Of a DNA stretch of 64,000 nt, positions 9,444-28,773 are shown one piece after another. The position numbers were made by a program, and so were the translations under genes. Numbering within the stretch: position 1 is the first letter of the stretch; every line of letters starts with the position of its first letter. Source of the DNA: Escherichia coli (GTDB lineage: Bacteria > Pseudomonadota > Gammaproteobacteria > Enterobacterales > Enterobacteriaceae); the NCBI RefSeq assembly GCF_030013205.1, contig NZ_CP122648.1; one strand, written 5' to 3'. Below the pieces are notes generated by a model. It was not told the origin of the DNA, searched no databases, and saw only the letters and a list, made by a program, of their open reading frames with translations.

Positions 9444-9446
9444 AGG

Positions 9447-9638: not shown

Positions 9639-9769
9639 AAAGATTAATAATAATTGATATAACAATGATTCTTATTATCAATATTATGGCGGGCCAGAGC
9701 AAGCAGTAATTTGTTGAGAAGACAACAAGTTGCGCAGAAATGCCCATTCCGTCAGGAATGGGCACGCAT

Positions 9770-10816: not shown

Positions 10817-10961
10817 TACAAGTCTCAGAAATTTGTTGCTTCTACGGCAGGACTACCGGGAAGTGATGCGCATCACGATAAACCAATCGCAGCTGATTTC
10901 AAGTGCGAGGTGTGTCACACCTCGCCGGGTGGTTAGCATGATAACAAAAAAACAAGCTAAT

Positions 10962-10979
10962 GCACTAGTTCTCTAGTAC
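10962..10979. promoter_or_regulatory. TrpR operator-like palindrome in aroH upstream region
   Basis: GCACTAGTTCTCTAGTAC, near-perfect inverted repeat of TrpR-box type upstream of aroH. Confidence 0.5.
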
Positions 10980-11806
10980 ATTCGACGGCTAAGGCCCATG
11001 ATATCGAGGATCTTGGTGGCAATCTCTTCTACCGAATAATTGGTACTGTTAATCCACGGGATCTGATTTTTACGGTACAAGGCTTCTACTTCCGCGACTT
11101 CCATCCTGCACTGACGAAGCGAGGCATAGCGACTGTTCTCCCGACGTTCTTCGCGAATCGCCGCCAGACGTTCCGGGTCGATAGTCAGGCCGAACAATTT
11201 ATGCTGAAGCGGTTTGAGCGACGCGGGTAGCACAAGATTATCCATATCGTCGGCAATAAAGGGGTAGTTTGCCGCGCGGATACCAAATTGCATTGCCAGA
11301 TACAGACTGGTGGGGGTTTTACCACAGCGAGAAACGCCGAGCAGGATCACCTGAGCCTGGTCCAGATTGCGTAACGAAATGCCATCATCGTGGGCGAGGG
11401 TGTAATCAATCGCAGCAATGCGCGCATCATATTTATTGAGATTATTAGGGTTAAGGCCATGGGTACGATGAGCAATCGGCGTTGGATCCAGTTTCATCTC
11501 TTGTTGTAGCGGGGCAACCAGCGCCTGAACGATATCCTGGCAAAAGCCTTCACTTTGCAAGATGATGGCGCGAATCTCCGGCAACACGATGGAGTAGAAG
11601 ACCAGCGGGCGCACACCTGTCTGGTGATAAATTGCGTCAATCTGATCCTTCACTGCCCGTGCACGGCTCTCATTTTCGACAAACGGCAGCGTAATGCTGC
11701 TGATAGTGACGGGAAATTGTGACATTACTGCGTGTCCTAATACCTCCGCAGTTATTGCCGTACCATCAGAAATATAAAAAACGTGGCGATCAACAGCATT
11801 ATCCAT
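10973..11806 (-). CDS. ppsR: PEP synthetase regulatory protein (bifunctional kinase/phosphotransferase)
   Basis: 277-aa ORF matching K-12 PpsR/YdiA; divergent from ppsA. Confidence 0.93.
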
Positions 11807-12138
11807 TTTGTTCTTCCCGTGATGCAGACATAATTCTATGAAAGCATAAATTAAAAACGCACAGAAGCGTAGAACGTTATGTCTGGTTTATAAAATGAAC
11901 CTTCAATTTTATTTTTTATGAAAACAGTATTTCATTTTTACGGTTTCGTTTATACCGATGGTTTATGTGGAAATTGTCGAAGAGAGCAGATTTGCGCAAC
12001 GCTGGGATCAGTCTTAAAAAGTAAAAAAATATATTTGCTTGAACGATTCACCGTTTTTTTCATCCGGTTAAATATGCAAAGATAAATGCGCAGAAATGTG
12101 TTTCTCAAACCGTTCATTTATCACAAAAGGATTGTTCG

Positions 12139-14517: not shown

Positions 14518-14525
14518 AATAAATA

Positions 14526-14548
14526 CCCGGCGGCGTTTTGTCGCCGGG
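14526..14548. terminator. Hairpin between convergent ppsA and fadK (possible bidirectional terminator)
   Basis: CCCGGCG-GCGTTTTGT-CGCCGGG followed by TTTAT. Confidence 0.5.
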
Positions 14549-14573
14549 TTTATGTGATCCCCGAAGATGAAAC

Positions 14574-16274
14574 TTATTCAATCTCTTCACAGACATCCTG
14601 AGTTAATCGCAGCATAATATCTTTCCTTAACAAAAACTTTTGTATTTTACCTGAGGCAGTGCGAGGTAGTTTTTCGATTACCACGATATGTTCAGGATAT
14701 TTATATTTCGCGACCCGTTTACGGCTAAAAAAAGTCACCACGTCTTCCAGCGATAATGAATGATGCGGGGCTTTCAGCACGACATAAGCGCATGAGCGTT
14801 CACCTAAACGTTCATCGGGCATCGCAACCACACAGGCATCGTGAATTTTAGGATGCTGCAATAAAATATCTTCTACTTCACGGCTGCTAATATTTTCGCC
14901 ACCGCGGACAATAATATCTTTCTTGCGCCCGGTTATTTTTATATAGCCAGCTTCATCCATGCGGCAGAGATCGCCGCTGTAATACCAGCCTTCTTCATCC
15001 AGCGCACGGGCGGTTAATTCAGGTTCATCAAAATACCCCATAAACACATTGGGGCCACGCGAGGCTTCTTCACCTTCGCAACCTGGCGGTAAGGTCTTGC
15101 GTGCGTCATCGACCACTTTAATCTCAACACCTGCGGCAGCGTAACCATCGGTGTGCATAAAGCGCGACAAAGGATCGTCGAGATTCACCACTGCGTGCGG
15201 CGAACTTTCTGTGGAACCATAAACACTTAATAATTTAATGCCGCGCTGCTGGCATTCACGCGCCACTTTTTTGGGGATTGTGGTCCCGCCGCAAAGAAAG
15301 AAGCGCAGCGCTGAAAGGTCAGCGGGTTGTTTCTCCAGTAAATTCAAAAGATCATAGACAAACGGCGTTGCGCCGAGCATACAGGTGCAACGCTGCTGCT
15401 CAAGCAACGCGAGACACGCATCAGGAGTGAAAATATCTAACAACACGCTGCGAGCGCCAATTAAGAATGGTGCCGTTACGCCATGCAGAAAGCCCGTTGC
15501 ATGACCAAGTGGCGCAGGCATCATAAAGACATCCTGCCAGGTCAGATTCAACCGCGCGCAATAAGCCCGCTCACTGGCGAGAATATTGTTATGCGTTAGC
15601 ATCACGCCCTTTGGCAGACCCTCGGTTCCGGAGGTAAACAGCACCGCGGCTAATTCATCGCCGTGGACCGTTATCGCCGTGGTCAGAGGAGTATTGTCGG
15701 CGATAATCTGACTTAATGAGAGGGAAGAGGTGGCGGGAGCCAGTTTGTCCACGCCGACAATTTGTTGTAGTTGTAGAAGCTGATTTTGCAGCGGCAGGAT
15801 TAAATCTACCGGACGCGTTTGTTTAAACAACGTCGGTGCAAAGAACATTTTTGCCTGACACTTATTGAGTACCCATACCAGTTCTGCTTCCCGCCAGGAA
15901 GGCAACAGCGGTACGGAAACCGCACCGATTTTCAGGCAGGCAAGATAGATAACGGTAAATTCACACCAGCCAGGCAGTTGAAATGCGATGCGATCGCCTG
16001 ATTCAATACCCTTCGTCAACATCCAGTTTGCCAGACAGCTCGCGGCGTGATCGAGCGCGCTATAGGTGTACGATGCTCCATGATTATCGACCACGGCAAT
16101 TTTGTCTGGCATCGCACGAGCGGTCTGCTGCCAGTAATCGGCCAGCGAAGCATCGCCCCATAGCCCTTGCTGACGATACGCCGCACGACGTTGTTCGTTA
16201 AACGTTAATGTCACTTTCATTTTGAACTCTCGAGACAGAACATCAGGCCCGAGATGCGGGCCTGTGGGATGCAT
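14574..16274 (-). CDS. fadK: Short-chain acyl-CoA synthetase (anaerobic)
   Basis: 566-aa ORF, AMP-binding family; alternative start at 16220 (MKVTLTF) would give 548 aa. Confidence 0.9.
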   Translation of the reverse strand: MHPTGPHLGPDVLSREFKMKVTLTFNEQRRAAYRQQGLWGDASLADYWQQTARAMPDKIAVVDNHGASYTYSALDHAASCLANWMLTKGIESGDRIAFQLPGWCEFTVIYLACLKIGAVSVPLLPSWREAELVWVLNKCQAKMFFAPTLFKQTRPVDLILPLQNQLLQLQQIVGVDKLAPATSSLSLSQIIADNTPLTTAITVHGDELAAVLFTSGTEGLPKGVMLTHNNILASERAYCARLNLTWQDVFMMPAPLGHATGFLHGVTAPFLIGARSVLLDIFTPDACLALLEQQRCTCMLGATPFVYDLLNLLEKQPADLSALRFFLCGGTTIPKKVARECQQRGIKLLSVYGSTESSPHAVVNLDDPLSRFMHTDGYAAAGVEIKVVDDARKTLPPGCEGEEASRGPNVFMGYFDEPELTARALDEEGWYYSGDLCRMDEAGYIKITGRKKDIIVRGGENISSREVEDILLQHPKIHDACVVAMPDERLGERSCAYVVLKAPHHSLSLEDVVTFFSRKRVAKYKYPEHIVVIEKLPRTASGKIQKFLLRKDIMLRLTQDVCEEIE

Positions 16275-16276
16275 GA

Positions 16277-16570
16277 TTAGCCGTAGCGAAAATCAATACC
16301 GAAGGTGCCTGCGGGATATTGCCACTGTTCGAGAATAGTGTTGCCGCACAGCACCCGACAGGTGCCGCATTCCAGACAACCGGCGGGATCGAAATGAATG
16401 TTTCCTGCGTCATCCTGCTTATAAAGTCCGGCAGGGCAGGCTTTCATTAATTTACGGAATTCATTGATATCGGGATTTGCCGCCAAAATGATATGCGGGT
16501 GGCCCTCATCAACATGGAATTTATTGACGCCTAATTTGATGTCGACGTTAACCGTAGCGTTCTGGCTCAT
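16277..16570 (-). CDS. ydiT: Ferredoxin-like protein (FixX-like)
   Basis: 97-aa ORF with Cys cluster; overlaps ydiS stop. Confidence 0.9.
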   Translation of the reverse strand: MSQNATVNVDIKLGVNKFHVDEGHPHIILAANPDINEFRKLMKACPAGLYKQDDAGNIHFDPAGCLECGTCRVLCGNTILEQWQYPAGTFGIDFRYG

Positions 16571-17856
16571 AGCGCGGTTGCTCCCTTAATGCCATCTTTC
16601 AGCAAGTTGATCAGCCCAATTTTCTTCGCGTGTCCCATGATCATTTTGCGTACCGGCTGGTTTGGTTTGCCGTCAATGGTGAACATCTCGTTCATGATGT
16701 CGGCTACCATTCGTGGATATTGGCTAAACAGGCGCGGGTTTTCCATGAGCGCCGGGATCTTGCGAAAATGCTGCATATCACGCATGACGCAGCTTTGTTC
16801 CAGCTCACGTTTGTATTGCGCAAGACTGCTGGCGGAGAAATCCGCGCGTTCTTTGGCGGCGATCACCGTTGTGGCGGCAGCCTGAGCCGATGCAATGGCT
16901 AAATCCATGCCGCGAACTGTAAAACCCAAATTCAGGCAGAAGCCTGCGGCGTCACCAACGATCATCACGCCATCGTTAACCAGCTGCGGCACCATTGCCA
17001 GACCGCCTTCCGGCACCATATGCGCGGAATATTCAAGCAGTTTGCCGCCGCTAATCAGCGGGCGAATGGCGGGGTGTTGTTTAAAATCTTCCAGCATTTG
17101 CGGCACGCTTTTTTGCGCATGGGCGATATCACCCAATCCACAAACCAGCCCCAACGATATGGAATCCTTATTGGTATAGAGAAATCCGCCGCCCATCAGG
17201 CCGTCAGAAGGGGAACCGGCAAACAGCCAGGCGGCACCTTCCTCGCCCGTAATATTAAAGCGATCGTTGATCTGTTCTGGTGTGAGGCCAATAACCTCTT
17301 TAACACCAACAGCGTAATGATGCGGATCGGAAGCGGGAACCATTCCCAGCGAGCGGCCAAGCATCGAGTTAACGCCATCAGCCAGAATCACCACATTCGC
17401 TTCGAGAATATCATCCCCGGCCTGGACGCCAGTGACCTTGTTTCCTTCACGAACCAGCGCATCGACGCGAACGCCCGGGATAAACTGTGCGCCCGCCTGC
17501 TCGGCTTGTTCCATCAACCACGGGTCCAGACGATTACGCAATACGGTATAAGATGCGTGTTGCGGAACATCTGGTTGCTCGCGGTGAAAATCGAGGGTAA
17601 CGGCGCTCTCTTCGGTTAAGAAAGAGATTTTCTCGCGTGTGACCTTGCGTTCTACCGGCGCTGATGCTGCAAAGCCTGGAATAATCGCTTCAAGTGTGTG
17701 GGCATAAAGACGCCCGCCGGTCATGTTTTTACATCCGGCACTGTCGCCGCGTTCTATCACCAGGACATCCAGCCCGGCTCGCGCCATGACCTGTGCGGCA
17801 ACGCTACCGGCAACGCCCGCACCGACCACAATGGCATCAAATTTGTCATCCGACAT
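16567..17856 (-). CDS. ydiS: ETF-quinone oxidoreductase-like flavoprotein (FixC-like)
   Basis: 429-aa ORF with FAD-binding GxGxxG N-terminus. Confidence 0.92.
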   Translation of the reverse strand: MSDDKFDAIVVGAGVAGSVAAQVMARAGLDVLVIERGDSAGCKNMTGGRLYAHTLEAIIPGFAASAPVERKVTREKISFLTEESAVTLDFHREQPDVPQHASYTVLRNRLDPWLMEQAEQAGAQFIPGVRVDALVREGNKVTGVQAGDDILEANVVILADGVNSMLGRSLGMVPASDPHHYAVGVKEVIGLTPEQINDRFNITGEEGAAWLFAGSPSDGLMGGGFLYTNKDSISLGLVCGLGDIAHAQKSVPQMLEDFKQHPAIRPLISGGKLLEYSAHMVPEGGLAMVPQLVNDGVMIVGDAAGFCLNLGFTVRGMDLAIASAQAAATTVIAAKERADFSASSLAQYKRELEQSCVMRDMQHFRKIPALMENPRLFSQYPRMVADIMNEMFTIDGKPNQPVRKMIMGHAKKIGLINLLKDGIKGATAL

Positions 17857-17911
17857 GCGTTATGCTCCCTTCCCGCTGCGTTTACAGCGGGAGATGTGGT
17901 TGAAAGGGGAA

Positions 17912-18850
17912 TTAGCTGCTCAACTGGCTAATCAGGGCAGGGACGACTTTGTAGATATCGCCCACCAGACCGTAGTCGGCATAGTTGAAGATTGGCGCAT
18001 TTTTATCTTTATTGATGGCGACAATCACTTTTGCGCCGTTGCCGCCAACCATATGCTGGATCTGCCCGGAAATCCCCAGCGTCAGGTAGAGATCGGATTT
18101 CAGCAACACGCCGGAGACACCGATATAACGTTCACGCTCCATCCAGTTCTCGCCTTCGGCAATTGGACGTGAACAGCCGACTTCAGCATTCAGCACCGCC
18201 GCCAGTTCGTGGACCATTTTCAGGTCATCCTGCGCCGCCAGACCACGACCGACGCCAACCACACGTTTTGCTTTGCTCAGGTCCACGCTGCTTGCGGCTT
18301 TCGCACGGCGTTCGCGACAGAGAATTTCATGACGCGGAGCAACATAAGGTACCGTTTCTGTCGGGCACTGATGAGCGGTATCACTGGTGCACGGTTCCTG
18401 AACACCGGGTGCAAGGGTAATGATCGCCAGCGGGCTGTTGATCTTTTCCTGTGCGAACGCTAACCCGCCATACATCCGGTGTTCGGCGCAAATGTGACCA
18501 TCGACAATATCCACCGCAGTGGCATCGTTCACCAGCGCCGCATTCAGTTGCACACTTAACCGTGCTGCCAGAGCTTTACCACGTTTCGTCGCGGCCAGCA
18601 GCAACATAGAAGGGTGTTTATCTTTCAGCAGGGCAGCAATGCTTTCGGCGTAATTTTCAGTACGTTGCAGCGCATCATTTTGCTCAAGAACATAAATACA
18701 TTTTGGACCATAAGGCATAACTGCCTGCGCCTGGTCGGTATTTTGTACAATGGCATACACCTGTTGGCCCCATTGCTGCGCGCCGCCAAACAGTTCAGCA
18801 TAACGTTCAGGATTATCGCTAAAGACCCAGACGCTGTTTAATTGACTCAT
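17912..18850 (-). CDS. ydiR: Electron transfer flavoprotein alpha subunit (FixB-like)
   Basis: 312-aa ORF matching K-12 YdiR. Confidence 0.92.
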   Translation of the reverse strand: MSQLNSVWVFSDNPERYAELFGGAQQWGQQVYAIVQNTDQAQAVMPYGPKCIYVLEQNDALQRTENYAESIAALLKDKHPSMLLLAATKRGKALAARLSVQLNAALVNDATAVDIVDGHICAEHRMYGGLAFAQEKINSPLAIITLAPGVQEPCTSDTAHQCPTETVPYVAPRHEILCRERRAKAASSVDLSKAKRVVGVGRGLAAQDDLKMVHELAAVLNAEVGCSRPIAEGENWMERERYIGVSGVLLKSDLYLTLGISGQIQHMVGGNGAKVIVAINKDKNAPIFNYADYGLVGDIYKVVPALISQLSS

Positions 18851-18869
18851 CGTTTCTTCTCCGTAGGCT

Positions 18870-19634
18870 TCAGTTCAGGGCTTTCTTCAGATGTTCCGCC
18901 AGCTCGGCAATGGCCTCCGGCGAATCGTTATCGAGAATGATGTGCTTACGTTCTGTTTGCGGCGGTACGCGAATGCCGGTCAGTTCAGCAAGCGGCGCGC
19001 TCTGGCTCCAGCCAATGTCACTTGCCTGCCACTGATTTACCGGTTTTTTACCCGCGCCGAGAATGGCTTTCATCGAAGGAATGCGTGGCATGTTAATATC
19101 GGAGGTGACGCAGAGCACGGCTGGAACAGAGAGCTCAATAACTTCAACATCATCTTCAAGCGTGCGTTCAATCACCAGTGTATTGCCCTGACGCTGAATA
19201 GCACTCACTGCATTAATCACCGGAAGTTGCAGAATTTCTCCGACCAGCAAGCCAACCTGCTGGGCATAAAGGTCGCCGGAACCTTCACCAAAGATCAGTA
19301 AATCGAAGCCGATTTTTTCAACTGCTGCCGCCAGCGCCTTTGCGGTATCGAGAGGCAGTGCATGTTCAAGTTGCGCATCCTGCACCAAATACAGGCTATG
19401 CGGCCCGCGGGATAGCACGTCTTTACGCACTTTCGAGTTCTGCAACAATGAGCCGCCAATGGTCAGCGCGGCTATCTCATCGTCATCTGTTGCAATCTGG
19501 CTTGCAGCTTCAATGGCATTGAGATCGAACTGGCTGATTTTGGCGTCGGCATTGTCGAAATTCAGGGTATATTCTGGAGTGACAACAATGTCCTGTTCTT
19601 CAGGCACCAGCTTAAAGCAGGTTATTATTTTCAT
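18870..19634 (-). CDS. ydiQ: Electron transfer flavoprotein beta subunit (FixA-like)
   Basis: 254-aa protein from internal ATG (MKIITCF) of 287-aa ORF. Confidence 0.9.
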   Translation of the reverse strand: MKIITCFKLVPEEQDIVVTPEYTLNFDNADAKISQFDLNAIEAASQIATDDDEIAALTIGGSLLQNSKVRKDVLSRGPHSLYLVQDAQLEHALPLDTAKALAAAVEKIGFDLLIFGEGSGDLYAQQVGLLVGEILQLPVINAVSAIQRQGNTLVIERTLEDDVEVIELSVPAVLCVTSDINMPRIPSMKAILGAGKKPVNQWQASDIGWSQSAPLAELTGIRVPPQTERKHIILDNDSPEAIAELAEHLKKALN

Positions 19635-19948
19635 GATTTCTCCTGTGAGTCGCATACGGAACCATCTCCGATGGAAGGTAAAAATGGCCTGAAAATAGTG
19701 TGCGATAGCAGGGCGGGGGGTTCGACGGAGCAAGCTGTTTTCCTTGCCAACAATCTTGCAAAAAAATGCGATCGCTAAAACAAAAGTGCAATTTGCGGCA
19801 ATATAGTTATTCCATGACCGTACAATCTTGCATTCAGTGTAAATAATCTTGTTTAGCTCTCGCTAAACGCGGTTGTATAACCGCAATACACGCCGTATTT
19901 TATCCGGCATATATTGTTTTTGCTTGCTCATGGAATAGGGAGGTTGTC

Positions 19949-20860
19949 ATGTATCAACGCTGTTTTGATAACGCCAGCGAAACGCTGTTTGTTGCCGGTA
20001 AAACGCCACGGCTTTCACGTTTTGCATTTAGCGATGATCCAAAATGGGAGTCCGGACATCACGTTCATGACAATGAAACCGAGTTGATTTACGTCAAGAA
20101 AGGGGTAGCAAGGTTTACCATCGATTCTTCGTTATATGTCGCGCACGCCGATGACATTGTGGTGATAGAACGTGGCAGGCTGCATGCGGTGGCCTCTGAC
20201 GTTAACGATCCGGCAACGACGTGTACCTGTGCGCTGTACGGCTTTCAGTTTCAGGGGGCTGAGGAAAATCAGCTACTGCAACCGCATTCTTGCCCGGTAA
20301 TTGCCGCAGGGCAGGGAAAAGAAGTCATTAAAACCTTATTTAATGAGCTAAGTGTGATTTTGCCGCAAAGTAAAAATAGCCAAACATCTTCGTTATGGGA
20401 CGCCTTTGCCTATACGTTAGCAATTCTTTACTATGAAAACTTTAAAAATGCTTATCGTTCGGAGCAGGGATATATTAAAAAAGATGTTCTGATAAAAGAT
20501 ATTCTTTTCTATCTGAATAATAACTATCGCGAAAAAATCACTTTAGAGCAGTTATCGAAAAAGTTTCGTGCCAGCGTCAGTTATATTTGCCATGAATTTA
20601 CCAAAGAGTATCGTATTTCCCCTATTAACTATGTTATTCAACGGCGTATGACGGAAGCGAAATGGTCACTCACTAATACTGAATTATCACAGGCAGAGAT
20701 CTCCTGGCGTGTGGGTTATGAAAATGTCGATCACTTTGCCAAACTGTTTTTGCGCCATGTCGGCTGTTCGCCCAGCGATTACCGCAGGCAATTTAAAAAC
20801 TGTTTTGCGGAACAAGAAATCTTATCTGAATTTCCTCAACCGGTAAGTCTTGCCGGATAA
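19949..20860 (+). CDS. ydiP: AraC-family transcriptional regulator
   Basis: 303-aa ORF with C-terminal AraC-type HTH. Confidence 0.9.
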   Translation: MYQRCFDNASETLFVAGKTPRLSRFAFSDDPKWESGHHVHDNETELIYVKKGVARFTIDSSLYVAHADDIVVIERGRLHAVASDVNDPATTCTCALYGFQFQGAEENQLLQPHSCPVIAAGQGKEVIKTLFNELSVILPQSKNSQTSSLWDAFAYTLAILYYENFKNAYRSEQGYIKKDVLIKDILFYLNNNYREKITLEQLSKKFRASVSYICHEFTKEYRISPINYVIQRRMTEAKWSLTNTELSQAEISWRVGYENVDHFAKLFLRHVGCSPSDYRRQFKNCFAEQEILSEFPQPVSLAG

Positions 20861-20902
20861 ATCTGGCGGCGCAGTTTGTTAAGAAGCTGCGCCGCCTGCA
20901 GA

Positions 20903-22054
20903 TTATTTGTTCTGATAATCTTTCAGGATCTGCCGACCCGCTACGTAAATCATAATTTCGTCTGTACCGCCGCCGATACGTTCACAACGGACATCACGCC
21001 AGAAGCGAGAGACGCGCGCCTCATCGGTATAGCCCAGACCGCCCATGATTTGAATCGCATCATCAATAACTTCCATTGCGGTACGTGCGCAGTACAGTTT
21101 TGCCAGCGCCGCGCTGGTGCGCAGTGACTGATGCTGATCGGCTTGCCATGCCACTTTCAACACCATGTTGCGCATGTTGTCGATCTTAATCGCCATCAGC
21201 GCCAGTTTTTCCTGGATCATCTGGTTATGACCAATGGGCTTACCAAAAGCGATACGTTGGTTGGCATAGCGGGCGGCATCTTCAAAGGCACACTCGGCAA
21301 AGCCGGTGCTGCGCGCGGCGTTGATCAGGCGCTCCATCTCAAAGTTGTACATCACATTGAGGAAACCCATTCCTTCTTCGCCCACCATGTCGCTCTCTTC
21401 AACTTCCACGTTGTCGAGATAGACTTCGCAGGTGCTGAGCATATGCCAGCCGATTTTATGCAGCGGGTTAATCTTAATGCCGGGCTTACTGGAGTCGACC
21501 CACCACAGGGTGAAGGCTTTTTGGGGATCTTTCGGTTCTGGATCGCGCGCCAGCACCAGCATATACGGGTACTCTTTCGCGCCGGTAATAAAGGTTTTCT
21601 GGCCGTTGATGTAAACCTTGCCGTTTTTACGCGTGTAAGTGGTGGTGGCGCTGTTGTTATCTGAGCCTGCGCCTGGTTCCGTCAATGCCAGGGCATAGGC
21701 GGGATCACCCGTTTCCAGGGTGCTCTCTGCCGTTTTACGTAGCTGCTCTGCAGAACCGAAACGGCGCATACTGTGAATACATTGACCGTTGGTGATCAAA
21801 AATGCCGGGGCACCGCATTTTGACACTTCCATCAGCGCCAGCATTTGGGTGACGTAATCCGCAGGGATACCACCAAATTCTTCCGGCACGCCAAGCATGG
21901 AAATACCGTTATCCGCCAGTGCCCGCATAAATTCACGCGGGTATGTCCCGTTTTGATCGCAGGTGCGGAAATACTCTTCCGGAAAGTTAGTCGTAATCAG
22001 TTCGCGAATACTGGCCAGCAGCAGTTCTTGTTCTTCAGTTAAAGAAAAATCCAT
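20903..22054 (-). CDS. ydiO: Acyl-CoA dehydrogenase family protein
   Basis: 383-aa protein from internal ATG (MDFSLTEEQ) of 401-aa ORF. Confidence 0.9.
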   Translation of the reverse strand: MDFSLTEEQELLLASIRELITTNFPEEYFRTCDQNGTYPREFMRALADNGISMLGVPEEFGGIPADYVTQMLALMEVSKCGAPAFLITNGQCIHSMRRFGSAEQLRKTAESTLETGDPAYALALTEPGAGSDNNSATTTYTRKNGKVYINGQKTFITGAKEYPYMLVLARDPEPKDPQKAFTLWWVDSSKPGIKINPLHKIGWHMLSTCEVYLDNVEVEESDMVGEEGMGFLNVMYNFEMERLINAARSTGFAECAFEDAARYANQRIAFGKPIGHNQMIQEKLALMAIKIDNMRNMVLKVAWQADQHQSLRTSAALAKLYCARTAMEVIDDAIQIMGGLGYTDEARVSRFWRDVRCERIGGGTDEIMIYVAGRQILKDYQNK

Positions 22055-22067
22055 CGTGATACTCCTG

Positions 22068-23663
22068 TTAATGAGCCGCTTCAGGCAGGACAAAACCCAT
22101 CGCCGCATCGATAAATAATCTTTCGTCCATCAGTTTGAGTTCTGGCGAAATCACTGGGGTGAAATCCATTTTGTCGAGAATATCTTTTTGTAAATCGACG
22201 CCAGGGGCGATTTCGATTAAATGCAGGCCGTCTTCTTTCAGCGTGAATACTGCGCGCTCAGTGATATAACGAACATCCAGCCCTCGCTCGAGAGCGATTT
22301 TTCCGCTGAAAGTAATTTCCGGTAGTTCCCGAATAAATTTCTTCACCCGTCCTTCCTGGACGATATTTAATTTGCCGTCGGTAATTTCTGTTTTTAAACT
22401 GCCCGCAGTTAATGTGCCGCAGAAAACGATTTTCTTCGAAGTGGCACTGATATCAATAAATCCACCGGTGCCCATGATTTTACCATTGAATTTATGCACG
22501 CCGACGTTACCGTGCTGGTCGACTTCAGCAAAACTCAAATAACAAACATCCAGACCGCCACCGTGATAAAAATCAAACTGGGACGTCATATCCAGAATGG
22601 CACGGGTATTCACGTTCGCGCCAAAGGCGATCCCCTGTGAAGTAATTCCGCCAATCGGACCTGTTTCTACCGTCAGAATAAAGTCATCAGCACAACCTTC
22701 TTCTCGGGCGACCAGGCCAATGCCGTCAGCAATACCGACGCCGACATTCCCCACCGCGCCTTTACGCATTTCGAATAATGCGCGCCGCGCAACTAATTTA
22801 CGTTGGTTTAGGGGCAGGCTAAGTTTGGTACTGTCATCAAGGGTGAAGTCACCAGAAATAAAGCGGTTAACCGGTGCACCGCCATACAGTTGGGTTTGAT
22901 CCGGATCGACCACCACAATATCCACCAGATAACCCGGAATACGGACAGATTTAGGATGCAGCGTGGCTTTCTTAACCATTTTCTGCACCTGCATCATCAC
23001 AATACCGCCGTTATTGTGCACCGCCTGGGCAATAACCAATGCGTCGAGATACATCACCTCATCTTCAAAAGTGGCGTAGCCTTCGCTGTCGCAGGTGGTA
23101 GCGCGAATGAAGGCGATATCTGGCGCAATCGCTTTGTAATAGAGATATTCTTTGTTATCAAACTCGACCAGTTTAATCAGGTCTTCTTTAGTGACTTCAT
23201 TCAGTTTGCCGCCATGCTGGCGTGGATCGACAAATGTCCCGATGCCAATATCACTAATAATACCAGGCTGGTGGGCTGCGGCGGCGCGTAAGGTTTGTGT
23301 AAGTACACCTTGTGGATAGTTATAAGCAATAATTTTATTTTGTTCTGCGAGATCAGAAATACGCGGCGATTGTCCCCAGTGACCGCATAATGCCCATTTC
23401 ACCAGACCTTCTTGCGCCAGCGGACTAATACCACGGTCGGCGCGATCGCCAAGCCCTGTCGGACTAATAATCGATAAATTACGTGGCGTTTGAGTCTGTT
23501 TATATTTATCAGCAAGAGCAGTAATTAACGTGGTGGCTTCCAGAATACCGCCGCCAGCGCCTAACACACAAAGTGTTGCTTCGTCGGGAATATAATTCAC
23601 CGCTTCCTGTGCCGACAGGACCGGCACTCGTCCATTAATACGAGGTGGTTTTATAGGTTTCAT
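22068..23663 (-). CDS. ydiF: Acyl-CoA:acetate CoA-transferase (fused alpha/beta)
   Basis: 531-aa ORF matching K-12 YdiF. Confidence 0.92.
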   Translation of the reverse strand: MKPIKPPRINGRVPVLSAQEAVNYIPDEATLCVLGAGGGILEATTLITALADKYKQTQTPRNLSIISPTGLGDRADRGISPLAQEGLVKWALCGHWGQSPRISDLAEQNKIIAYNYPQGVLTQTLRAAAAHQPGIISDIGIGTFVDPRQHGGKLNEVTKEDLIKLVEFDNKEYLYYKAIAPDIAFIRATTCDSEGYATFEDEVMYLDALVIAQAVHNNGGIVMMQVQKMVKKATLHPKSVRIPGYLVDIVVVDPDQTQLYGGAPVNRFISGDFTLDDSTKLSLPLNQRKLVARRALFEMRKGAVGNVGVGIADGIGLVAREEGCADDFILTVETGPIGGITSQGIAFGANVNTRAILDMTSQFDFYHGGGLDVCYLSFAEVDQHGNVGVHKFNGKIMGTGGFIDISATSKKIVFCGTLTAGSLKTEITDGKLNIVQEGRVKKFIRELPEITFSGKIALERGLDVRYITERAVFTLKEDGLHLIEIAPGVDLQKDILDKMDFTPVISPELKLMDERLFIDAAMGFVLPEAAH

Positions 23664-23807
23664 TGTTAATTCCTGATTCAGGTGTGATTTTCCCTACGCC
23701 AGATGGAGAATTAGCGCACAGAGACTCACGAAATATTTTTATTAAATACGGTTAAATATATTTTTTTAGTTCGGCGGGGGAGGATATTCCCGCCGAAATA
23801 TTATTGC

Positions 23808-24566
23808 TTATGCCTGATGTAAAATAGTTAACACTGTGCGCAAATCATTTACCGAGATTTGCCCTGGTGCAGAGGCTTTTTTTACCGCACCAAAAGTTGC
23901 CGCCGAGCCAAATACTTCACCAGCCAGACGAGAAATTACGCCAGTTTTTGCCATTGACATCGTGATGATTGGACGATCGGCATACTGCTCCTGCATCTCC
24001 AGGGTCGCGGCAAGCAACGTCAGCACATCGCTGGTACTTTGCGGCATCAGCGCAATCTTAGGAATATCGGCGTCGAAGGATTGCATTTTGCGCAGACGGG
24101 CAATGATTTCTTCGGCTTCCGGCGTTTTATGGAAGTCATGGTTGGACATGACAACTTTCACATCATGCGCGTGGGCGTAGGCGACGGTTTCTTTAACCTG
24201 ATCATCGCCGGTAAATAACTCCAGATCGATCATATCAACCAGGCCACTATCGATGGCTGCACGATTGAGTGCAATATATGCCTCGGTGGAAATCGCCTGC
24301 TCGCCGCCTTCTTTGGCACTGCGGAAGGTAAACAGCAGCGGTTTTTCTGGCATGGTTTCACGGAGAATTTTTGCTGCCGCCATGACAGACTCCACATTGG
24401 AGAGATCGGCATAGTGGTCCACACGCCATTCCAGAATATCAAAGTCCGCTTCACGATAGGCGAGAGCTTCGGATTTCACGCTGGCGATATCTTTCGCCAT
24501 CAGCGAGACGATGATTTTAGGTGCGCCCGTACCAATGACGAGATCTTTTACAGTTACGGTTTTCAT
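23808..24566 (-). CDS. aroD: 3-dehydroquinate dehydratase type I
   Basis: 252-aa ORF matching K-12 AroD. Confidence 0.95.
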
Positions 24567-24596
24567 TTTTTACCCTTTCTGCACGCGGTCAGCCTG

Positions 24597-25463
24597 TCAG
24601 GCACCGAACCCCATGACCTGTTTAACATATTCCAGAGGGAAATCTTTGCCAGTCCATAACGTGAACTGTTCAGCCCCTTGCCACAACAACATGCCGTATC
24701 CATCAATCGTTTTGCAACCAGCTTGTTGCGCCTGCTGCAATAACTTCGTCATATGCGGGTTATACACGCATTCAGTGACCAGAAGTCCCGGATGTAACAG
24801 ACTGATATCATTAACCAATGATTCATTCTCAAGGGGTTTCATGCCCACTTTTGTGCCATTGGTTAAAATGTCGGCGGAAGCCAGGGCTTCAGCAAAGGCT
24901 TGCTGATCGGCGAGATCGGTAACCGTGACGACACAATCGGTGTTTTCGTTAACCCGCTGCGCGAAGGCGAGGGCTTTATCGAAGAACTCATCCCGACGGT
25001 TAAAGAGTTTAATTTCTTTTAAACCTTCAATTGCCCCCTGCGCGCCAATCGCCGTTGAGGCACCTCCGGCCCCTAACAGCACCATCGTTTTGCCTTTGAT
25101 ATCAAAACCGCTCTCTTTAATGGCGCGAATATGGCCCGTGCCGTCGGTGTTATAGCCACGCAGATAGCCATCATCATTAACGATGGTGTTGATGGCCCCC
25201 ACCAGTTTGGCCGCTGGCGTTAATTCATCAACATATTCACACGCCAGTTGTTTGTTCGGCATTGATACACCAGTTCCGCGCATTTTGAGGGCTTTTAATC
25301 CTTCAATTGCTCCGGGAAAACTATCGTTATCCACTTCAAAGGCCATATAGGTAAATGGCAATCCCGCTTTTTCTAAGGCTTTATTCTGCATTTCAGGCGA
25401 TAAACTGTGGCGGATAGGATAAGCCATCAGCCCAATCAATTCGTATTTTGCGGTAACATCCAT
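24597..25463 (-). CDS. ydiB: Quinate/shikimate dehydrogenase
   Basis: 288-aa ORF matching K-12 YdiB. Confidence 0.95.
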
Positions 25464-25474
25464 AATTAACTCCT

Positions 25475-26740
25475 TTAACCTCTATGCTTAATTGTGTTTA
25501 ACCGGGTGCTAAATTTACGCTCGCCAAACCGCACATCATTTTCAGGAATAATGAAAACGCGGTAATAGCGGATAAAGACAATAATTGCGGTAATCAGGGC
25601 CAGCAGCGAGAAAGTAAAATCGAGAGCAATGATATATTGCAGGCCGATGTTCGACAGATAACCGGTAATCAGCGGAATAACAAAGTTAGCCAGTCCACCC
25701 ATCATCATATAAATACTGGTGACTTTGGCTTTGCTTTTGGGGAAAAACTCTGACATGACCGAAACGCCGAGCTGTAAAATGCCGCCAGCTGCTGAGAAAC
25801 CGATAACAAAGGCTCCGGCATTACACACCAGTGGAGAAGGGTACAGGTAGATAATGGCTGCTGTTATTGTTGCCAGTGCAGAGTTAAATACATTAGCCCA
25901 GATGGGCCGGACCATTTTTTTCAGTAGTGCGGCAAAAATAAAGACACAGACCAACGAGCCCATACTGTAATAAGAGATGGTTTTTAATGCTTCAGCTTCT
26001 GACATACCAGCAAAAGCCATCGCATATTTGGGCATCCACACCACAATCACATAAAAGGTCGAGAATGCGGCTACACCGAACAGTACCGATGAAACACCTT
26101 CCAGCCAGACTAACGGTTTGCTGTTCATTTGCGGTAATTCATGAGCTACGCTGGCGTCCACCAACTGGCTGGGGAATTTGCTTTTCAACAGCATCAGTGT
26201 GATCAGTACAAACAGAATACCCGGAATAATCAGCCCATAGCCGTACCAGATGTTATTGAGCAACATATAGCTCACCAGCATTGGGTAGAACATTTGCCCG
26301 AATGACACCATCGCTTTAACCAGTATGACCGCCGAACCAGAGGCTTTCGGAAAGCATTCCATGAGCGCGGGGTAGCCACCCGTATCCAGCGCTGAGTTAG
26401 CGATACCTACGCACACTGCCAGACAGTAGGCGAGAGTTAAATTCGGGCAAGCAGGGATACCAAAGAAGAATAGCAGATACATTATTACTGCCATTAATAT
26501 TACCGCCCGACGACCAAACTTATCGGAGAACACACCGAAGAATAAAATACTGATCAATCGCCCCAAACCGATACCGGAAATTAAATAGGCAATGCCCGCG
26601 TTGTCAGTGGAAAACTTTTCTGCCAGAGATGACATATTTTGGGCAAGCGTAATAACACTAATGCCGTGCAGGAAATAGCTGAAGTAAATACAAAGAACAG
26701 CCAGGATAAATGGCGTGCTGAAAGCCTTATTTTGAGACAT
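25475..26740 (-). CDS. ydiN: MFS transporter
   Basis: 421-aa protein (ORF extends 2 codons further to 26746); polytopic membrane protein. Confidence 0.9.
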
Positions 26741-26966
26741 TTTCACAGCTCCTTGCTGAAAGATAATTTCGTTACCGTACGTATTGTTCTCCGACGGTTT
26801 ACATAATTACTATACTGAAGATGATTTTCCCTGGGTACATGGCATAAAGTTTATGTTTCCAGGAATATTGCATGTCATAGTTTGTTTTTTATCGCGATTT
26901 TCCTTAGTTGGTGCAGAAAGAGTTATTTATCCGTAAGATCTTGCATGACCTGAAAAGAATATTGCA

Positions 26967-28636: not shown

Positions 28637-28773
28637 CGTGTAATGGCTGCATGAAATAAACAATAAAATATAAATAACATTATCAGCCTGCTGACGGCTT
28701 GAAGAGAGTCACAGTATCTTGTGCAACATTATTGGAAAGCGTGAGGGGCGAGGTAGCGAAGCGGAAAAATGTT

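What the first reader, a model, noticed from the sequence alone, without database searches (positions are those of the whole stretch)
14574..23663. ETF-based anaerobic acyl-CoA module (ydiF-ydiO, ydiP, ydiQRST-fadK)
The cluster combines a CoA-transferase, an acyl-CoA dehydrogenase, an AraC regulator, a FixABCX-like electron-transfer flavoprotein set and a short-chain acyl-CoA synthetase, with translational coupling (ydiS/ydiT overlap). This parallels the cai/fix carnitine arrangement and is linked to anaerobic fatty-acid use, but the in vivo substrate and the role of YdiP are only partly resolved.
Basis: established knowledge. Interest (0 to 1): 0.3.

Follow-up and report, generated by a model that had tools for sequence, protein, structure and literature searches.

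The report
E. coli ydi acyl-CoA/ETF cluster
This is the already-catalogued E. coli ydiF-ydiO / ydiP / ydiQRST-fadK gene cluster, correctly read, but comparison with other bacteria shows it always travels with the neighbouring quinate/shikimate genes, so it may really be a system for using plant-derived shikimate as an anaerobic electron sink rather than for burning fatty acids.

Summary
Window 14574-23663 holds eight intact genes: fadK, ydiT, ydiS, ydiR, ydiQ (- strand), ydiP (+), and ydiO, ydiF (-). The stretch is 100% identical to pig ETEC chromosomes and present in 5425 of 5426 complete E. coli genomes. The locus is known and only partly characterised.

The stated boundary is probably too narrow. 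In 41 of 42 informative loci from more than ten genera, ydiF-ydiO lies directly downstream of ydiN-ydiB-aroD (MFS transporter, quinate/shikimate dehydrogenase, dehydroquinase). That block, together with ydiQRST, was transferred into Sutterella (Betaproteobacteria) without fadK or ydiP. Two unidentified ~43% GC contigs have aroD, one of them also ydiB, embedded between the ETF and fixCX-like genes of a single operon. Sutterella wadsworthensis is reported to respire shikimate to hydroshikimate.

My best reading (about 0.55) is a cai/fix-like CoA loop that reduces shikimoyl-CoA. The main rival is anaerobic short-chain fatty-acid oxidation, which has genetic support in Salmonella.

The parts
14574..16220 (-). 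fadK (ydiD), an AMP-forming short/medium-chain acyl-CoA ligase. It is the proposed primer of the CoA loop and an accessory part of the module.
   Evidence: It is absent from the Sutterella and L049 versions of the module. A 49%-identical ligase ends the L055 operon.
16244..16264 (-). GC-rich hairpin between the ydiT stop and the fadK start. It may be an intra-operon attenuator or stabiliser; this is weak evidence.
   Evidence: -17.7 kcal/mol, z -1.9, not significant.
16277..16570 (-). ydiT, a FixX-like ferredoxin (Cys65/68/71/75 form CxxCxxCxxxC, plus Cys45).
   Evidence: (FixX model 143 bits, below the cutoff of 166), 63% identity to K-12 FixX.
16567..17856 (-). ydiS, a FixC-like ETF:quinone oxidoreductase flavoprotein. 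Its stop overlaps the ydiT start by 4 bp.
   Evidence: (ETFQO_UQ-bd domain), (best PDB hit is FixC 7koe_C at 242 bits, then ETF-QO 2gmh).
17912..18850 (-). ydiR, ETF alpha (FixB-like) subunit.
18870..19634 (-). ydiQ, ETF beta (FixA-like) subunit.
   Evidence: best solved relative is CarD of the caffeyl-CoA reductase-ETF complex.
19635..19948 (.). Divergent ydiQ/ydiP control region, 314 bp.
   Evidence: Its length varies from about 330 to 910 bp in other genera.
19949..20860 (+). ydiP, an AraC/cupin regulator and the probable pathway regulator.
   Evidence: A 45%-identical orthologue lies divergent to the single fused operon in L049. Published ChIP studies report no ydi site, none of five in one and none named in the passage read from the other.
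20084..20097 (.). FNR-consensus palindrome TTGATTTACGTCAA inside the ydiP coding sequence. It is the site reported under the ydiP/ydiQ FNR ChIP-chip peak in K-12.
   Evidence: It is not conserved outside Escherichia.
20865..20896 (.). Bidirectional terminator-like hairpin between the convergent ydiP and ydiO stop codons.
   Evidence: -29.2 kcal/mol, z -6.2 on +; -23.0 kcal/mol, z -5.4 on -.
20903..22054 (-). ydiO, a CaiA-type acyl-CoA dehydrogenase / enoyl-CoA reductase and the catalytic core of the module.
   Evidence: It is 92-93% identical in Yersinia and 80-84% in Sutterella.
22068..23663 (-). ydiF, a fused family I CoA-transferase.
   Evidence: A crystal structure of the same protein exists, 2AHU/2AHV/2AHW.
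23770..23797 (.). Hairpin just after the aroD stop. In the aroD direction it is followed by an A-run, not a U-tract, so it is a poor terminator and read-through into ydiF is plausible.
   Evidence: -16.6 kcal/mol, z -3.5.
23808..24566 (-). aroD, type I 3-dehydroquinate dehydratase. It lies outside the finding's coordinates but is syntenically part of the module.
24597..25463 (-). ydiB, NAD(P) quinate/shikimate dehydrogenase. It is syntenically part of the module.
25475..26740 (-). ydiN, an MFS transporter and the first gene of the co-directional ydiN-ydiB-aroD-ydiF-ydiO block.

Best explanation
Shown: the region is the E. coli ydiF-ydiO / ydiP / ydiQRST-fadK locus. It encodes a family I CoA-transferase (YdiF), a CaiA-type flavin acyl-CoA dehydrogenase/enoyl-CoA reductase (YdiO), an electron-transfer flavoprotein (YdiQR), a FixCX-like ETF:quinone oxidoreductase with its ferredoxin (YdiST), an AMP-forming CoA ligase (FadK) and an AraC-type regulator (YdiP).

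Inferred: it works together with the adjacent ydiN-ydiB-aroD genes as a cai/fix-like 'CoA loop' acting on a hydroaromatic acid, not primarily on fatty acids. The proposed steps are:
1. YdiN imports quinate or shikimate.
2. YdiB and AroD convert quinate through 3-dehydroquinate and 3-dehydroshikimate to shikimate, with no net redox change.
3. YdiF puts CoA on shikimate. Shikimoyl-CoA is an alpha,beta-unsaturated (enoyl) thioester.
4. YdiO reduces the ring C1=C2 bond with electrons passed from quinol through YdiST and YdiQR.
5. YdiF hands the CoA to the next shikimate and releases hydroshikimate (3,4,5-trihydroxycyclohexanecarboxylate).
6. FadK supplies the first CoA ester with ATP, as CaiC and CarB do. 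YdiP, probably with FNR in E. coli, switches the system on.

The direction is not fixed by sequence. Reduction as an electron sink, or oxidation of a saturated ring acid, are both possible. Activity on butyryl- or hexanoyl-CoA may coexist.
For: Identity of the locus.

Linkage to the shikimate genes within relatives of E. coli:
- In 41 of 42 loci with upstream sequence, ydiB-aroD-ydiF-ydiO are contiguous and co-directional with ydiQRST adjacent, preceded by ydiN in all but one end-truncated locus. The genera are Escherichia, Citrobacter, Kosakonia, Intestinirhabdus, Yersinia, Dickeya, Brenneria, Serratia, Prodigiosinella and Symbiopectobacterium.

Linkage retained after independent rearrangements:
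- Two Sutterella species carry ydiTSRQ(-) and ydiN-ydiB-aroD-ydiF-ydiO(+). YdiO is 80-84% identical there, fadK and ydiP are missing, and the flanks are unrelated and species-specific.
- L049 is one operon: ydiN-ydiF-ydiO-ydiQ-ydiR-ydiB-aroD-ydiS-ydiT, with a 45%-identical YdiP divergent from it.
- L055 is MFS-ydiF-ydiO-ETFbeta-ETFalpha-DHquinase_I-fixC-fixX-ligase.
- L048 has a shikimate dehydrogenase directly upstream of ydiF-ydiO.
- YdiF-like transferases at 63-65% identity lie close to a type II dehydroquinase, one to three genes downstream on the same strand.

Specificity of the link: sister-clade ACADs at 63-68% identity use a family III CoA-transferase and have no shikimate genes. The link is therefore specific to the YdiO/YdiF clade.

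Conservation: between E. coli and Yersinia, YdiO (92-93%), YdiF (87-90%) and YdiB (84-85%) are the most conserved proteins. YdiP (65-67%) and FadK (70-72%) are among the least.

Chemistry: YdiO has GGG where butyryl-CoA dehydrogenase has the catalytic YEG. It also has an invariant Glu241 on the preceding helix, shared with CaiA.

Phenotype elsewhere: S. wadsworthensis grows better with formate plus shikimate and reduces the enoate group to hydroshikimate.

Expression: ydiN-ydiB-aroD are co-induced in shikimate-accumulating E. coli. ydiQRST rise 20-32-fold in stationary phase of a shikimate producer.

Precedents for the mechanism: cai/fix and the CarC-CarDE caffeyl-CoA reductase, whose CarD is the best solved relative of YdiQ.
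Against: - No experiment links these E. coli genes to shikimate. No paper in the searched library proposes it.
- Secondary citations of Bronner et al. 2018 say Salmonella ydiQRSTD and ydiD are needed for anaerobic butyrate utilisation.
- FadK is most active on C6-C8 fatty acids in vitro and supports anaerobic growth of fadD mutants on fatty acids.
- In E. lenta the shikimate reductase is a fumarate-reductase-type flavoenzyme. S. wadsworthensis has many such enzymes, so its phenotype need not come from the ydi block.
- aroD is E. coli's biosynthetic dehydroquinase. Part of the synteny within Enterobacterales is simply inherited.
- The ydiQRST induction compares growth phases, not presence and absence of shikimate, and ydiF/ydiO were not reported.
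- A hairpin separates aroD from ydiF.
- YdiP ChIP reported no sites in the locus.
Confidence: 0.55

Rival explanations
1. This is the textbook reading. The cluster is the entry and first-oxidation module of anaerobic fatty-acid beta-oxidation. FadK or YdiF activates short- and medium-chain fatty acids. YdiO oxidises acyl-CoA to enoyl-CoA. YdiQR and YdiST pass the electrons to the quinone pool and on to nitrate or other acceptors. FadIJ, encoded elsewhere, finishes the cycle.
For: - FadK matches the 'medium-chain fatty-acid--CoA ligase' equivalog above its cutoff.
- The review read summarises FadK activity on C6-C8 acids and the fadD fadK double-mutant phenotype.
- Salmonella ydiQRSTD and ydiD are reported as required for anaerobic butyrate utilisation with electron acceptors, and are deleted in S. 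Typhi.
- An FNR ChIP peak and consensus site lie in the locus.
- The closest solved relatives of YdiO include short-chain and butyryl-CoA dehydrogenases.
Against: - The review states that experimental evidence for YdiQR in fatty-acid growth is lacking. It also says anaerobic induction of fadK was not reproduced and there is no FadR or CRP control.
- The locus has no hydratase, hydroxyacyl-CoA dehydrogenase or thiolase.
- fadK, the only gene with direct fatty-acid biochemistry, is the part lost when the module moves to other lineages.
- YdiO lacks the YEG catalytic glutamate typical of butyryl-, short- and medium-chain enzymes.
- This reading does not explain why aroD, ydiB and ydiN are kept next to, or inside, the operon in four independent architectures.
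Confidence: 0.3
2. The module is hydroaromatic, as in the best explanation, but runs oxidatively. Saturated ring acids made by other gut or plant-associated microbes (hydroshikimate, or cyclohexanecarboxylate derivatives) are activated by YdiF or FadK. YdiO dehydrogenates them, with electrons going to quinone through YdiQRST. YdiB and AroD channel the product into aromatic biosynthesis or onward to quinate or dehydroshikimate. This would be salvage or catabolism rather than an electron sink.
For: - The synteny evidence is the same as for the best explanation.
- ACAD to ETF to ETF-QO normally runs in the oxidative direction, and YdiS carries an ETF-QO quinone-binding domain.
- FadK's second-best NCBIfam model is cyclohexanecarboxylate-CoA ligase, and YdiO hits cyclohexane-1-carbonyl-CoA dehydrogenase models. 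Both hits are far below their cutoffs.
- Salmonella needs an external electron acceptor for the ydi-dependent phenotype.
Against: - The closest characterised paralogue system, CaiA/FixABCX, is reductive.
- S. wadsworthensis reduces shikimate rather than producing it.
- E. coli is not known to grow on such acids.
- The NCBIfam hits are weak and non-specific.
Confidence: 0.1
3. The cluster has no dedicated substrate. It is a promiscuous, poorly expressed enoyl-CoA reductase/ETF set, as used in engineered reverse beta-oxidation. Its adjacency to aroD-ydiB-ydiN would then be an inherited accident.
For: The genes are used or modelled as an enoyl-CoA reductase with its redox partner in reverse beta-oxidation engineering. 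Reported expression is low and there is no clear phenotype in K-12.
Against: - YdiO is exceptionally conserved across genera (92-93% between E. coli and Yersinia).
- The locus is retained in 5347 of 5426 E. coli genomes at 80% coverage or more.
- The nine-gene block has been transferred horizontally as a unit.
- The aroD linkage recurs in reshuffled operons.
Confidence: 0.05

Closest known systems
E. coli caiTABCDE / fixABCX (anaerobic carnitine reduction to gamma-butyrobetaine)
   Same: - The ACAD-family reductase is paralogous (YdiO-CaiA 48%).
- So are the ETF (YdiQ-FixA 55%, YdiR-FixB 44%), the ETF-QO-like flavoprotein (YdiS-FixC 61%) and the ferredoxin (YdiT-FixX 63%).
- Both have an AMP-forming ligase (FadK-CaiC 29%), a CoA-transferase that recycles CoA, a dedicated transporter and a pathway regulator.
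- Both have the same 4-bp fixC/fixX-type overlap.
- YdiO and CaiA share the GGG/Glu241 active-site arrangement.
   Different: - The CoA-transferase belongs to family I (PF01144), not family III like CaiB.
- There is no crotonase-type CoA-ester dehydratase (CaiD). The associated dehydratase is AroD, which acts on the free acid.
- The transporter is MFS (YdiN), not the BCCT antiporter CaiT.
- The regulator is AraC-type, not CaiF.
- The substrate is unknown and is proposed here to be shikimate or quinate.
Acetobacterium woodii caffeate respiration (CarA CoA-transferase, CarB ligase, CarC-CarDE caffeyl-CoA reductase-ETF complex, PDB 6FAH)
   Same: The logic is the same: an enoate is activated by a priming ligase, reduced as its CoA ester by an ACAD-family enzyme with an ETF, and CoA is recycled by a transferase. 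CarD is the best solved relative of YdiQ (88 bits). CarC and CarE are also among the hits.
   Different: - CarCDE is a soluble NADH-dependent bifurcating complex that reduces ferredoxin. The ydi set instead has FixCX-like quinone-linked partners.
- The bifurcating-ETF signature DGDTAQVG reads GDLYAQQVG in YdiQ.
- The comparison of pathway components rests on my knowledge of the Car system, apart from the PDB hits.
Salmonella ydiQRSTD 'anaerobic butyrate utilisation' operon (Bronner et al. 2018) and the E. coli anaerobic fatty-acid pathway (Campbell et al. 2003; Morgan-Kiss and Cronan 2004)
   Same: These are orthologous genes. Salmonella YdiF is 92% and YdiO 95% identical. This is the published functional label for this very locus.
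   Different: That label does not account for the conserved linkage to aroD-ydiB-ydiN found here. The primary papers were not available to me, so it is seen only through secondary citations. For E. coli, the review states that evidence for YdiQR is lacking.
Flavin (fumarate-reductase-like) shikimate reductase of Eggerthella lenta (Little et al.)
   Same: It would catalyse the same net reaction proposed here, shikimate to hydroshikimate as a respiratory electron sink in gut bacteria.
   Different: It is an unrelated enzyme family acting on the free acid, with no CoA esters, ACAD or ETF.
FixABCX of nitrogen fixers and Thermotoga maritima (PDB 7KOE)
   Same: YdiS is clearly FixC-like (242 bits to 7koe_C). 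YdiR hits FixB 7koe_B. YdiT is FixX-like.
   Different: Those complexes bifurcate NADH electrons to quinone and ferredoxin or flavodoxin. Here the partner is an acyl-CoA dehydrogenase, and bifurcation is neither required nor shown.

Membership tests
E. coli ydiF-ydiO / ydiP / ydiQRST-fadK locus (identity with the annotated locus) | Nucleotide identity and the same gene order as annotated E. coli chromosomes. | tested here: met
   100% identity over 10.5 kb to NZ_CP122719 and others. 5425 of 5426 genomes match and 5347 cover 80% or more.
cai/fix-type CoA-loop enoate reduction system | CaiA-like ACAD-family reductase. | tested here: met
   48% identity to K-12 CaiA. The CaiA model NF002885 scores 451.8 bits, below its 540 cutoff, so YdiO is a paralogue and not CaiA itself.
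cai/fix-type CoA-loop enoate reduction system | FixABCX-like ETF, ETF-QO and ferredoxin encoded with it. | tested here: met
   55, 44, 61 and 63% identity to FixA, B, C and X. The FixA (subfamily, 324.5/219) and FixC (639.6/610) NCBIfam models pass their cutoffs; the FixB (319.5/549) and FixX (143.4/166) models score below theirs. 7koe_C scores 242 bits.
cai/fix-type CoA-loop enoate reduction system | CoA-transferase of the CaiB type (family III) for CoA recycling. | tested here: not met
   YdiF is family I (PF01144). The role may be analogous, but the protein is not homologous to CaiB. The sister clade in E. albertii and Desulfovibrio does use family III.
cai/fix-type CoA-loop enoate reduction system | Priming AMP-forming CoA ligase. 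| tested here: met
   FadK has AMP-binding domains and is 29% identical to CaiC. It is absent from the Sutterella and L049 versions.
cai/fix-type CoA-loop enoate reduction system | Crotonase-type dehydratase acting on the CoA ester (CaiD). | tested here: not met
   No ECH-family gene lies in 14574-28181. The associated dehydratase is AroD (DHquinase_I).
cai/fix-type CoA-loop enoate reduction system | Net reduction of the substrate in vivo under anaerobiosis. | not testable with these tools
   This needs culture and LC-MS. The only indirect support is the S. wadsworthensis shikimate phenotype.
Butyryl-CoA / short-chain acyl-CoA dehydrogenase (Bcd/SCAD type) | Catalytic glutamate in the C-terminal I-Y-E-G-T motif. 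| tested here: not met
   YdiO reads RIGGGTDEI where 1BUC reads QIYEGTNEV. GGG and Glu241 in FEMERL are invariant in YdiO, the Sutterella and L049 orthologues and CaiA. That Glu241 sits at the isovaleryl-/long-chain-type base position is from my own knowledge.
Anaerobic fatty-acid beta-oxidation pathway | Acyl-CoA synthetase of the FadK equivalog. | tested here: met
   NF004758 scores 1084 bits against a cutoff of 736.
Anaerobic fatty-acid beta-oxidation pathway | Hydratase, dehydrogenase and thiolase, or fatty-acid-responsive regulation, linked to the locus. | tested here: not met
   None of these enzymes is in the locus or in any of the related loci. The review reports no FadR or CRP control of fadK.
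Anaerobic fatty-acid beta-oxidation pathway | Genetic requirement of ydiO and ydiQRST for anaerobic fatty-acid or butyrate use. | not testable with these tools
   It is reported for Salmonella ydiQRSTD/ydiD only through secondary citations. For E. coli the review says 'experimental evidence is lacking'.
Electron-bifurcating ETF (group 2) | Small-subunit signature DGDTAQVG(P) for the second (bifurcating) FAD. | tested here: inconclusive
   YdiQ has GEGSGDLYAQQVG. Bifurcating CarD, LctB and EtfB have (R/K)Q(A/T)(I/T)DGDTAQVG. Human and Paracoccus ETFs have D(D/N)D..(Q/A)TG. Overall similarity is higher to bifurcating ETFs.
Proposed quinate/shikimate CoA-dependent reduction module | Conserved physical linkage of ydiF-ydiO-ETF with dehydroquinase and/or shikimate dehydrogenase across independent rearrangements. 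| tested here: met
   41 of 42 genome loci show it, as do the Sutterella transfer, L048, L049 and L055. L050 and L053 have a type II dehydroquinase. The link is absent from the 63-68% sister clade.
Proposed quinate/shikimate CoA-dependent reduction module | Enzymatic activity of YdiF and YdiO on shikimate and shikimoyl-CoA. | not testable with these tools
   No assay was possible, and no report was found in 10 literature searches.

The most novel reading that the evidence does not exclude
ydiN-ydiB-aroD-ydiF-ydiO, ydiQRST and (in Enterobacterales) ydiP and fadK together form a previously unrecognised CoA-dependent, ETF- and quinol-linked pathway. It would let E. coli, Salmonella, Citrobacter, Yersinia, plant-associated Enterobacterales and Sutterella use dietary or plant quinate and shikimate as a respiratory electron acceptor, with hydroshikimate as the product. 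This would assign a function to about ten y-genes and give YdiB its physiological role. It would also be a second, non-homologous route to the shikimate respiration recently found in Eggerthella.
Probability: 0.5. Interest if true: 0.7.

Novelty: new member of a known kind. Interest (0 to 1): 0.45.

Why it matters
The genes themselves are long catalogued, so as an annotation this is ordinary. It matters because their physiological substrate has been an open question for about 20 years. They are cited as 'anaerobic beta-oxidation' or used as a black-box enoyl-CoA reductase in reverse beta-oxidation engineering.

The comparative evidence gathered here gives a specific hypothesis that is cheap to test: shikimate or quinate respiration through a CoA loop. 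If it is right:
- It explains why E. coli keeps a second shikimate dehydrogenase (YdiB).
- It adds an electron acceptor to enterobacterial gut and plant physiology.
- It bears on by-product formation in industrial shikimate strains.
- It reframes the loss of ydiQRSTD in S. Typhi.

If it is wrong, the locus stays a partly characterised fatty-acid module.

Tried and rejected
- Rfam scan of the whole window: nothing inside the region.
- Sigma-70 promoter scan: fewer sites than in shuffles, so uninformative.
- FNR-site conservation: the E. coli site inside ydiP is not conserved in other genera, so FNR control cannot be generalised.
- YdiP targets: one ChIP-exo study lists five sites (sdhC, uxaB, secG, cspA, yihQ) and a ChIP-seq study points to cspE/cspA. 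Neither names a site in the ydi locus, and both used aerobic or cold conditions without a candidate inducer. I do not treat the 'cold-shock regulator' label as excluding a pathway role.
- Bronner 2018: not held under three identifiers, so the Salmonella evidence is second-hand.
- Literature searches for dihydro- or hydroshikimate, shikimoyl-CoA, or ydi genes together with shikimate or quinate: no paper links the two.
- The ydiQRST induction in a shikimate producer: weak support, because the comparison is between growth phases and ydiF, ydiO, fadK and ydiN are not mentioned.
- Bifurcating-ETF membership: inconclusive.
- The YdiF 'ENG' catalytic motif was not found by a simple string search and I did not pursue it.
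- The ydiT-fadK hairpin is not significant (z -1.9).
- Contexts of more distant homologues (L051, L052, L054) carry no shikimate genes, which marks the limit of the association.
- Not run: motif discovery for a shared YdiP operator upstream of ydiQ, ydiF and ydiN (no tool was available, and the intergenic regions are too divergent to align reliably). Structure prediction and docking were judged not decisive.

Full report
**What is there.** Window 14574-23663 contains eight intact reading frames at exactly the positions implied by the finding. A 10.5-kb query around them is 100% identical to several porcine ETEC chromosomes. It matches 5425 of 5426 complete E. coli genomes, and 5347 of them cover at least 80% of it.

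RefSeq annotation of an identical record names the genes as follows:
- fadK 14574-16220 (-)
- ydiT 16277-16570 (-)
- ydiS 16567-17856 (-)
- ydiR 17912-18850 (-)
- ydiQ 18870-19634 (-)
- ydiP 19949-20860 (+)
- ydiO 20903-22054 (-)
- ydiF 22068-23663 (-)

The flanks are ppsA on one side and aroD, ydiB, ydiN and ydiM on the other.

Pfam and NCBIfam scans confirm every family assignment:
- FadK is an AMP-forming ligase and passes the FadK equivalog cutoff.
- YdiT is a FixX-like ferredoxin.
- YdiS is a FixC-like flavoprotein with an ETF-QO quinone-binding domain.
- YdiR and YdiQ are the ETF alpha and beta subunits.
- YdiP is an AraC/cupin regulator.
- YdiO is an acyl-CoA dehydrogenase.
- YdiF is a fused family I CoA-transferase whose crystal structure exists (2AHU/2AHV/2AHW).

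The ydiS/ydiT ATGA overlap is real. ydiF and ydiO are 13 bp apart with a good ribosome-binding site. A strong bidirectional hairpin (-29 kcal/mol, z -6.2) sits between the convergent ydiP and ydiO stops.

**What the literature available to me says.** The locus is known but thinly characterised.
- A 2022 review states that YdiQR are of unknown function and that evidence for a role in anaerobic fatty-acid growth is lacking.
- The same review says FadK is most active on C6-C8 acids and backs up FadD.
- It adds that its reported anaerobic induction was not reproduced in transcriptomes, and that it has no FadR or CRP control.
- The y-ome paper uses ydiO as an example of a gene with limited functional information.
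- In Salmonella, ydiFO, ydiQRST and fadHIJK are described as the anaerobic beta-oxidation pathway.
- Bronner et al. 2018, seen only through secondary citations because the paper is not held, is cited for a ydiQRSTD/ydiD-dependent anaerobic butyrate utilisation that S. Typhi has lost.
- YdiP has been mapped twice. ChIP-exo in glucose minimal medium gave five sites (sdhC, uxaB, secG, cspA, yihQ), none in the ydi locus. A genetic-interaction and ChIP-seq study renamed it csiP and tied it to cold-shock genes.
- An FNR ChIP-chip peak is assigned to ydiP/ydiQ with the site TTGACGTAAATCAA. In the window this palindrome lies at 20084-20097, inside the ydiP coding sequence and about 450 bp upstream of the ydiQ start. 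It is not conserved in other genera.

**Comparative genomics changes the picture.** A scan of one genome per species with YdiO returned 45 loci. I mapped all window proteins onto them by tblastn.

In 41 of the 42 loci that retain upstream sequence, ydiB-aroD-ydiF-ydiO are contiguous and co-directional, preceded by ydiN in 40 (L002 begins inside ydiB), with ydiQRST adjacent where the contig extends that far. The genera are Escherichia, Citrobacter, Kosakonia, Intestinirhabdus, Yersinia, Dickeya, Brenneria, Serratia, Prodigiosinella and Symbiopectobacterium. The remaining locus looks degraded. Synteny among relatives could simply be inherited. Four independent rearrangements argue otherwise.

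1. Two Sutterella species (Betaproteobacteria) carry ydiT-S-R-Q on one strand and ydiN-ydiB-aroD-ydiF-ydiO on the other.
 - YdiO is 80-84% and YdiF 83% identical to E. coli.
 - There is no fadK and no ydiP.
 - The flanks are unrelated and differ between the two species.
 - This is a horizontally moved nine-gene unit.

2. Contig L049 (about 43% GC) has a single operon, ydiN-ydiF-ydiO-ydiQ-ydiR-ydiB-aroD-ydiS-ydiT.
 - All nine are orthologous to the window's genes at 44-83% identity.
 - A 45%-identical YdiP is divergent from it, and there is no fadK.

3. Contig L055 has MFS-ydiF-ydiO-ETFbeta-ETFalpha-DHquinase_I-fixC-fixX followed by a FadK-like ligase.

4. Contig L048 has a shikimate dehydrogenase directly upstream of ydiF-ydiO.

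Further out, YdiF-like transferases at 63-65% identity lie close to a type II dehydroquinase, with a MaoC dehydratase and an ApbA-like reductase. By contrast, the sister clade of YdiO (63-68% identity; E. albertii, Desulfovibrio) uses a family III CoA-transferase and has no shikimate genes. More distant YdiF homologues also lose the association.

Between E. coli and Yersinia the most conserved proteins are YdiO (92-93%), YdiF (87-90%) and YdiB (84-85%). YdiP (65-67%) and FadK (70-72%) are among the least conserved.

The conserved core is therefore transporter, quinate/shikimate dehydrogenase, dehydroquinase, CoA-transferase, ACAD, ETF and FixCX. The ligase and the AraC regulator are lineage-specific additions. 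The finding's right-hand boundary at 23663 cuts this unit.

**Mechanistic reading.** Shikimate is an alpha,beta-unsaturated acid, so its CoA ester is an enoyl-CoA. The closest characterised paralogue system, cai/fix, activates an acid by a CoA-transferase primed by a ligase. It reduces the enoyl-CoA with a CaiA-type flavoenzyme fed by FixABCX and recycles the CoA (pathway logic from established knowledge).

The ydi proteins are paralogous to these:
- 48% identity to CaiA
- 55, 44, 61 and 63% to FixA, FixB, FixC and FixX
- 29% to CaiC

The best solved relative of YdiQ is CarD of the caffeyl-CoA reductase-ETF complex, another enoate-respiration system. YdiS is clearly FixC/ETF-QO-like.

YdiO and CaiA, together with the Sutterella and L049 orthologues, share an active-site arrangement:
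- They have GGG where butyryl-CoA dehydrogenase (1BUC) has the catalytic YEG glutamate.
- They have an invariant Glu241 in FEMERL, where Bcd has glycine.

By my knowledge of the family, Glu241 is at the isovaleryl-/long-chain-type base position, which leaves more room around C2-C3.

I therefore propose the following pathway.
1. YdiN imports quinate or shikimate.
2. YdiB and AroD convert quinate to shikimate, redox-neutrally.
3. YdiF forms shikimoyl-CoA.
4. YdiO reduces it with electrons from quinol through YdiST and YdiQR.
5. YdiF releases hydroshikimate.
6. FadK primes the loop.

Only the gene identities, homologies and synteny are shown. Every catalytic step on shikimate is inference.

**Independent support and its limits.** Little et al. 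report that Sutterella wadsworthensis, the species of locus L037, shows formate-dependent growth stimulation by shikimate and reduces its enoate group to hydroshikimate. Shikimate was also detected in faecal samples. They do not assign the Sutterella enzyme and do not mention acyl-CoA or ETF systems. In E. lenta the responsible enzyme is a fumarate-reductase-type flavoprotein, and Sutterella has many of those, so this is consistent but not specific.

In E. coli, ydiN-ydiB-aroD are co-induced in shikimate-accumulating strains, and the YdiM/YdiN clade is generally linked to shikimate genes. ydiQ, R, S and T rise 20-32-fold in stationary phase of a shikimate producer. That comparison is between growth phases, and ydiF, ydiO, fadK and ydiN are not reported.

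The hairpin after aroD is followed by an A-run rather than a U-tract in the aroD direction. Read-through into ydiF is possible but unproven.

**Rivals.** The published fatty-acid reading keeps real weight, about 0.3. It has genetics in Salmonella and biochemistry for FadK. It does not explain the aroD/ydiB/ydiN linkage, the absence of the other beta-oxidation enzymes, or the dispensability of fadK in transferred modules.

An oxidative hydroaromatic version (salvage of saturated ring acids) cannot be excluded from sequence, about 0.1. A 'no dedicated substrate' view is unlikely given the conservation and horizontal transfer of the block, about 0.05. Whether YdiQR bifurcates is unresolved. Overall similarity favours bifurcating ETFs, but the signature motif is only partly kept.

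**Verdict.** As an annotation the finding is correct and already known. Its interpretation is partly supported. The added value is a specific, testable and, as far as ten searches of the held library show, unpublished hypothesis: this cluster is a CoA-dependent quinate/shikimate reduction system.

I rate overall interest at 0.45. The shikimate-respiration reading has probability about 0.5, and would deserve interest of about 0.7 if true.

Noticed in passing
window 28772-28879 (-), 34484-34544 (+), 61413-61803 (+): Rfam gathering-score hits to the sRNAs RprA, rydB and STnc550, outside the finding.
   Followed up: no
window 52666-52739 and 52747-52820 (-); 52538-52701 (+): Two tRNA genes. An Rfam 'HPnc0260' antisense-RNA family hit on the opposite strand overlaps one of them and is probably a tRNA-related cross-match.
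   Followed up: no
window 44561-44574: A second perfect FNR-type palindrome, TTGATAACGATCAA. Only two such sites occur in the 64-kb window, against 0.38 expected.
   Followed up: no
window 20084-20097: The FNR consensus site attributed to the ydiP/ydiQ ChIP-chip peak lies inside the ydiP coding sequence, 136 bp past its ATG, and not in the intergenic region. It is not conserved outside Escherichia. A FlhDC SELEX peak is also reported inside ydiP.
   Followed up: partly
window 16221-16276: The fadK frame is open up to an ATG at 16274 (566 aa), 2 bp after the ydiT stop, but RefSeq starts at 16220 (548 aa). A GC hairpin (16244-16264) lies in between. Spacer lengths in other genera suggest the extension is not conserved.
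   Followed up: partly
L046 (E. coli strain E69, CP089930.1): ydiF is joined almost directly to ppsA. This is a natural deletion of ydiO through fadK in an E. coli isolate. About 79 of 5426 genomes lack 80% or more of the region.
   Followed up: no
L056 (E. albertii-type contig) 4504-12872; L057 (Desulfovibrio desulfuricans CP036295.1) 5134-17537: This is a sister module of unknown substrate. It has an ACAD 63-68% identical to YdiO, a second ACAD, a family III CoA-transferase, an MFS transporter and an ETF. In Desulfovibrio it also has FixCX, a metallo-beta-lactamase-fold protein and an AMP ligase. In E. albertii it is an island between ung and the SpoU methylase gene.
   Followed up: partly
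L050 10001-14082; L053 10001-14011; L051 2155-13133: Firmicute-type modules consist of a YdiF-like CoA-transferase, a MaoC dehydratase, an ApbA-like reductase, a small unknown protein and a type II dehydroquinase. In Hominifimenecus (L051) the transferase is preceded by four carboxylesterase genes and an MFS transporter. This suggests a chlorogenate-to-quinate-to-CoA-ester route.
   Followed up: no
L026 3335-4237 (-), L022 3281-4282 (-): Yersinia and Dickeya have a LysR-family regulator inserted between ydiM and ydiN, divergent from ydiN. E. coli lacks it, so control of the ydiN-side operon may differ between genera.
   Followed up: no
L030 (record titled Martelella alba): A contig labelled as an alphaproteobacterium carries a typical Enterobacterales ydi locus with 91% YdiO identity. 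This is likely contamination or mislabelling of the assembly.
   Followed up: no
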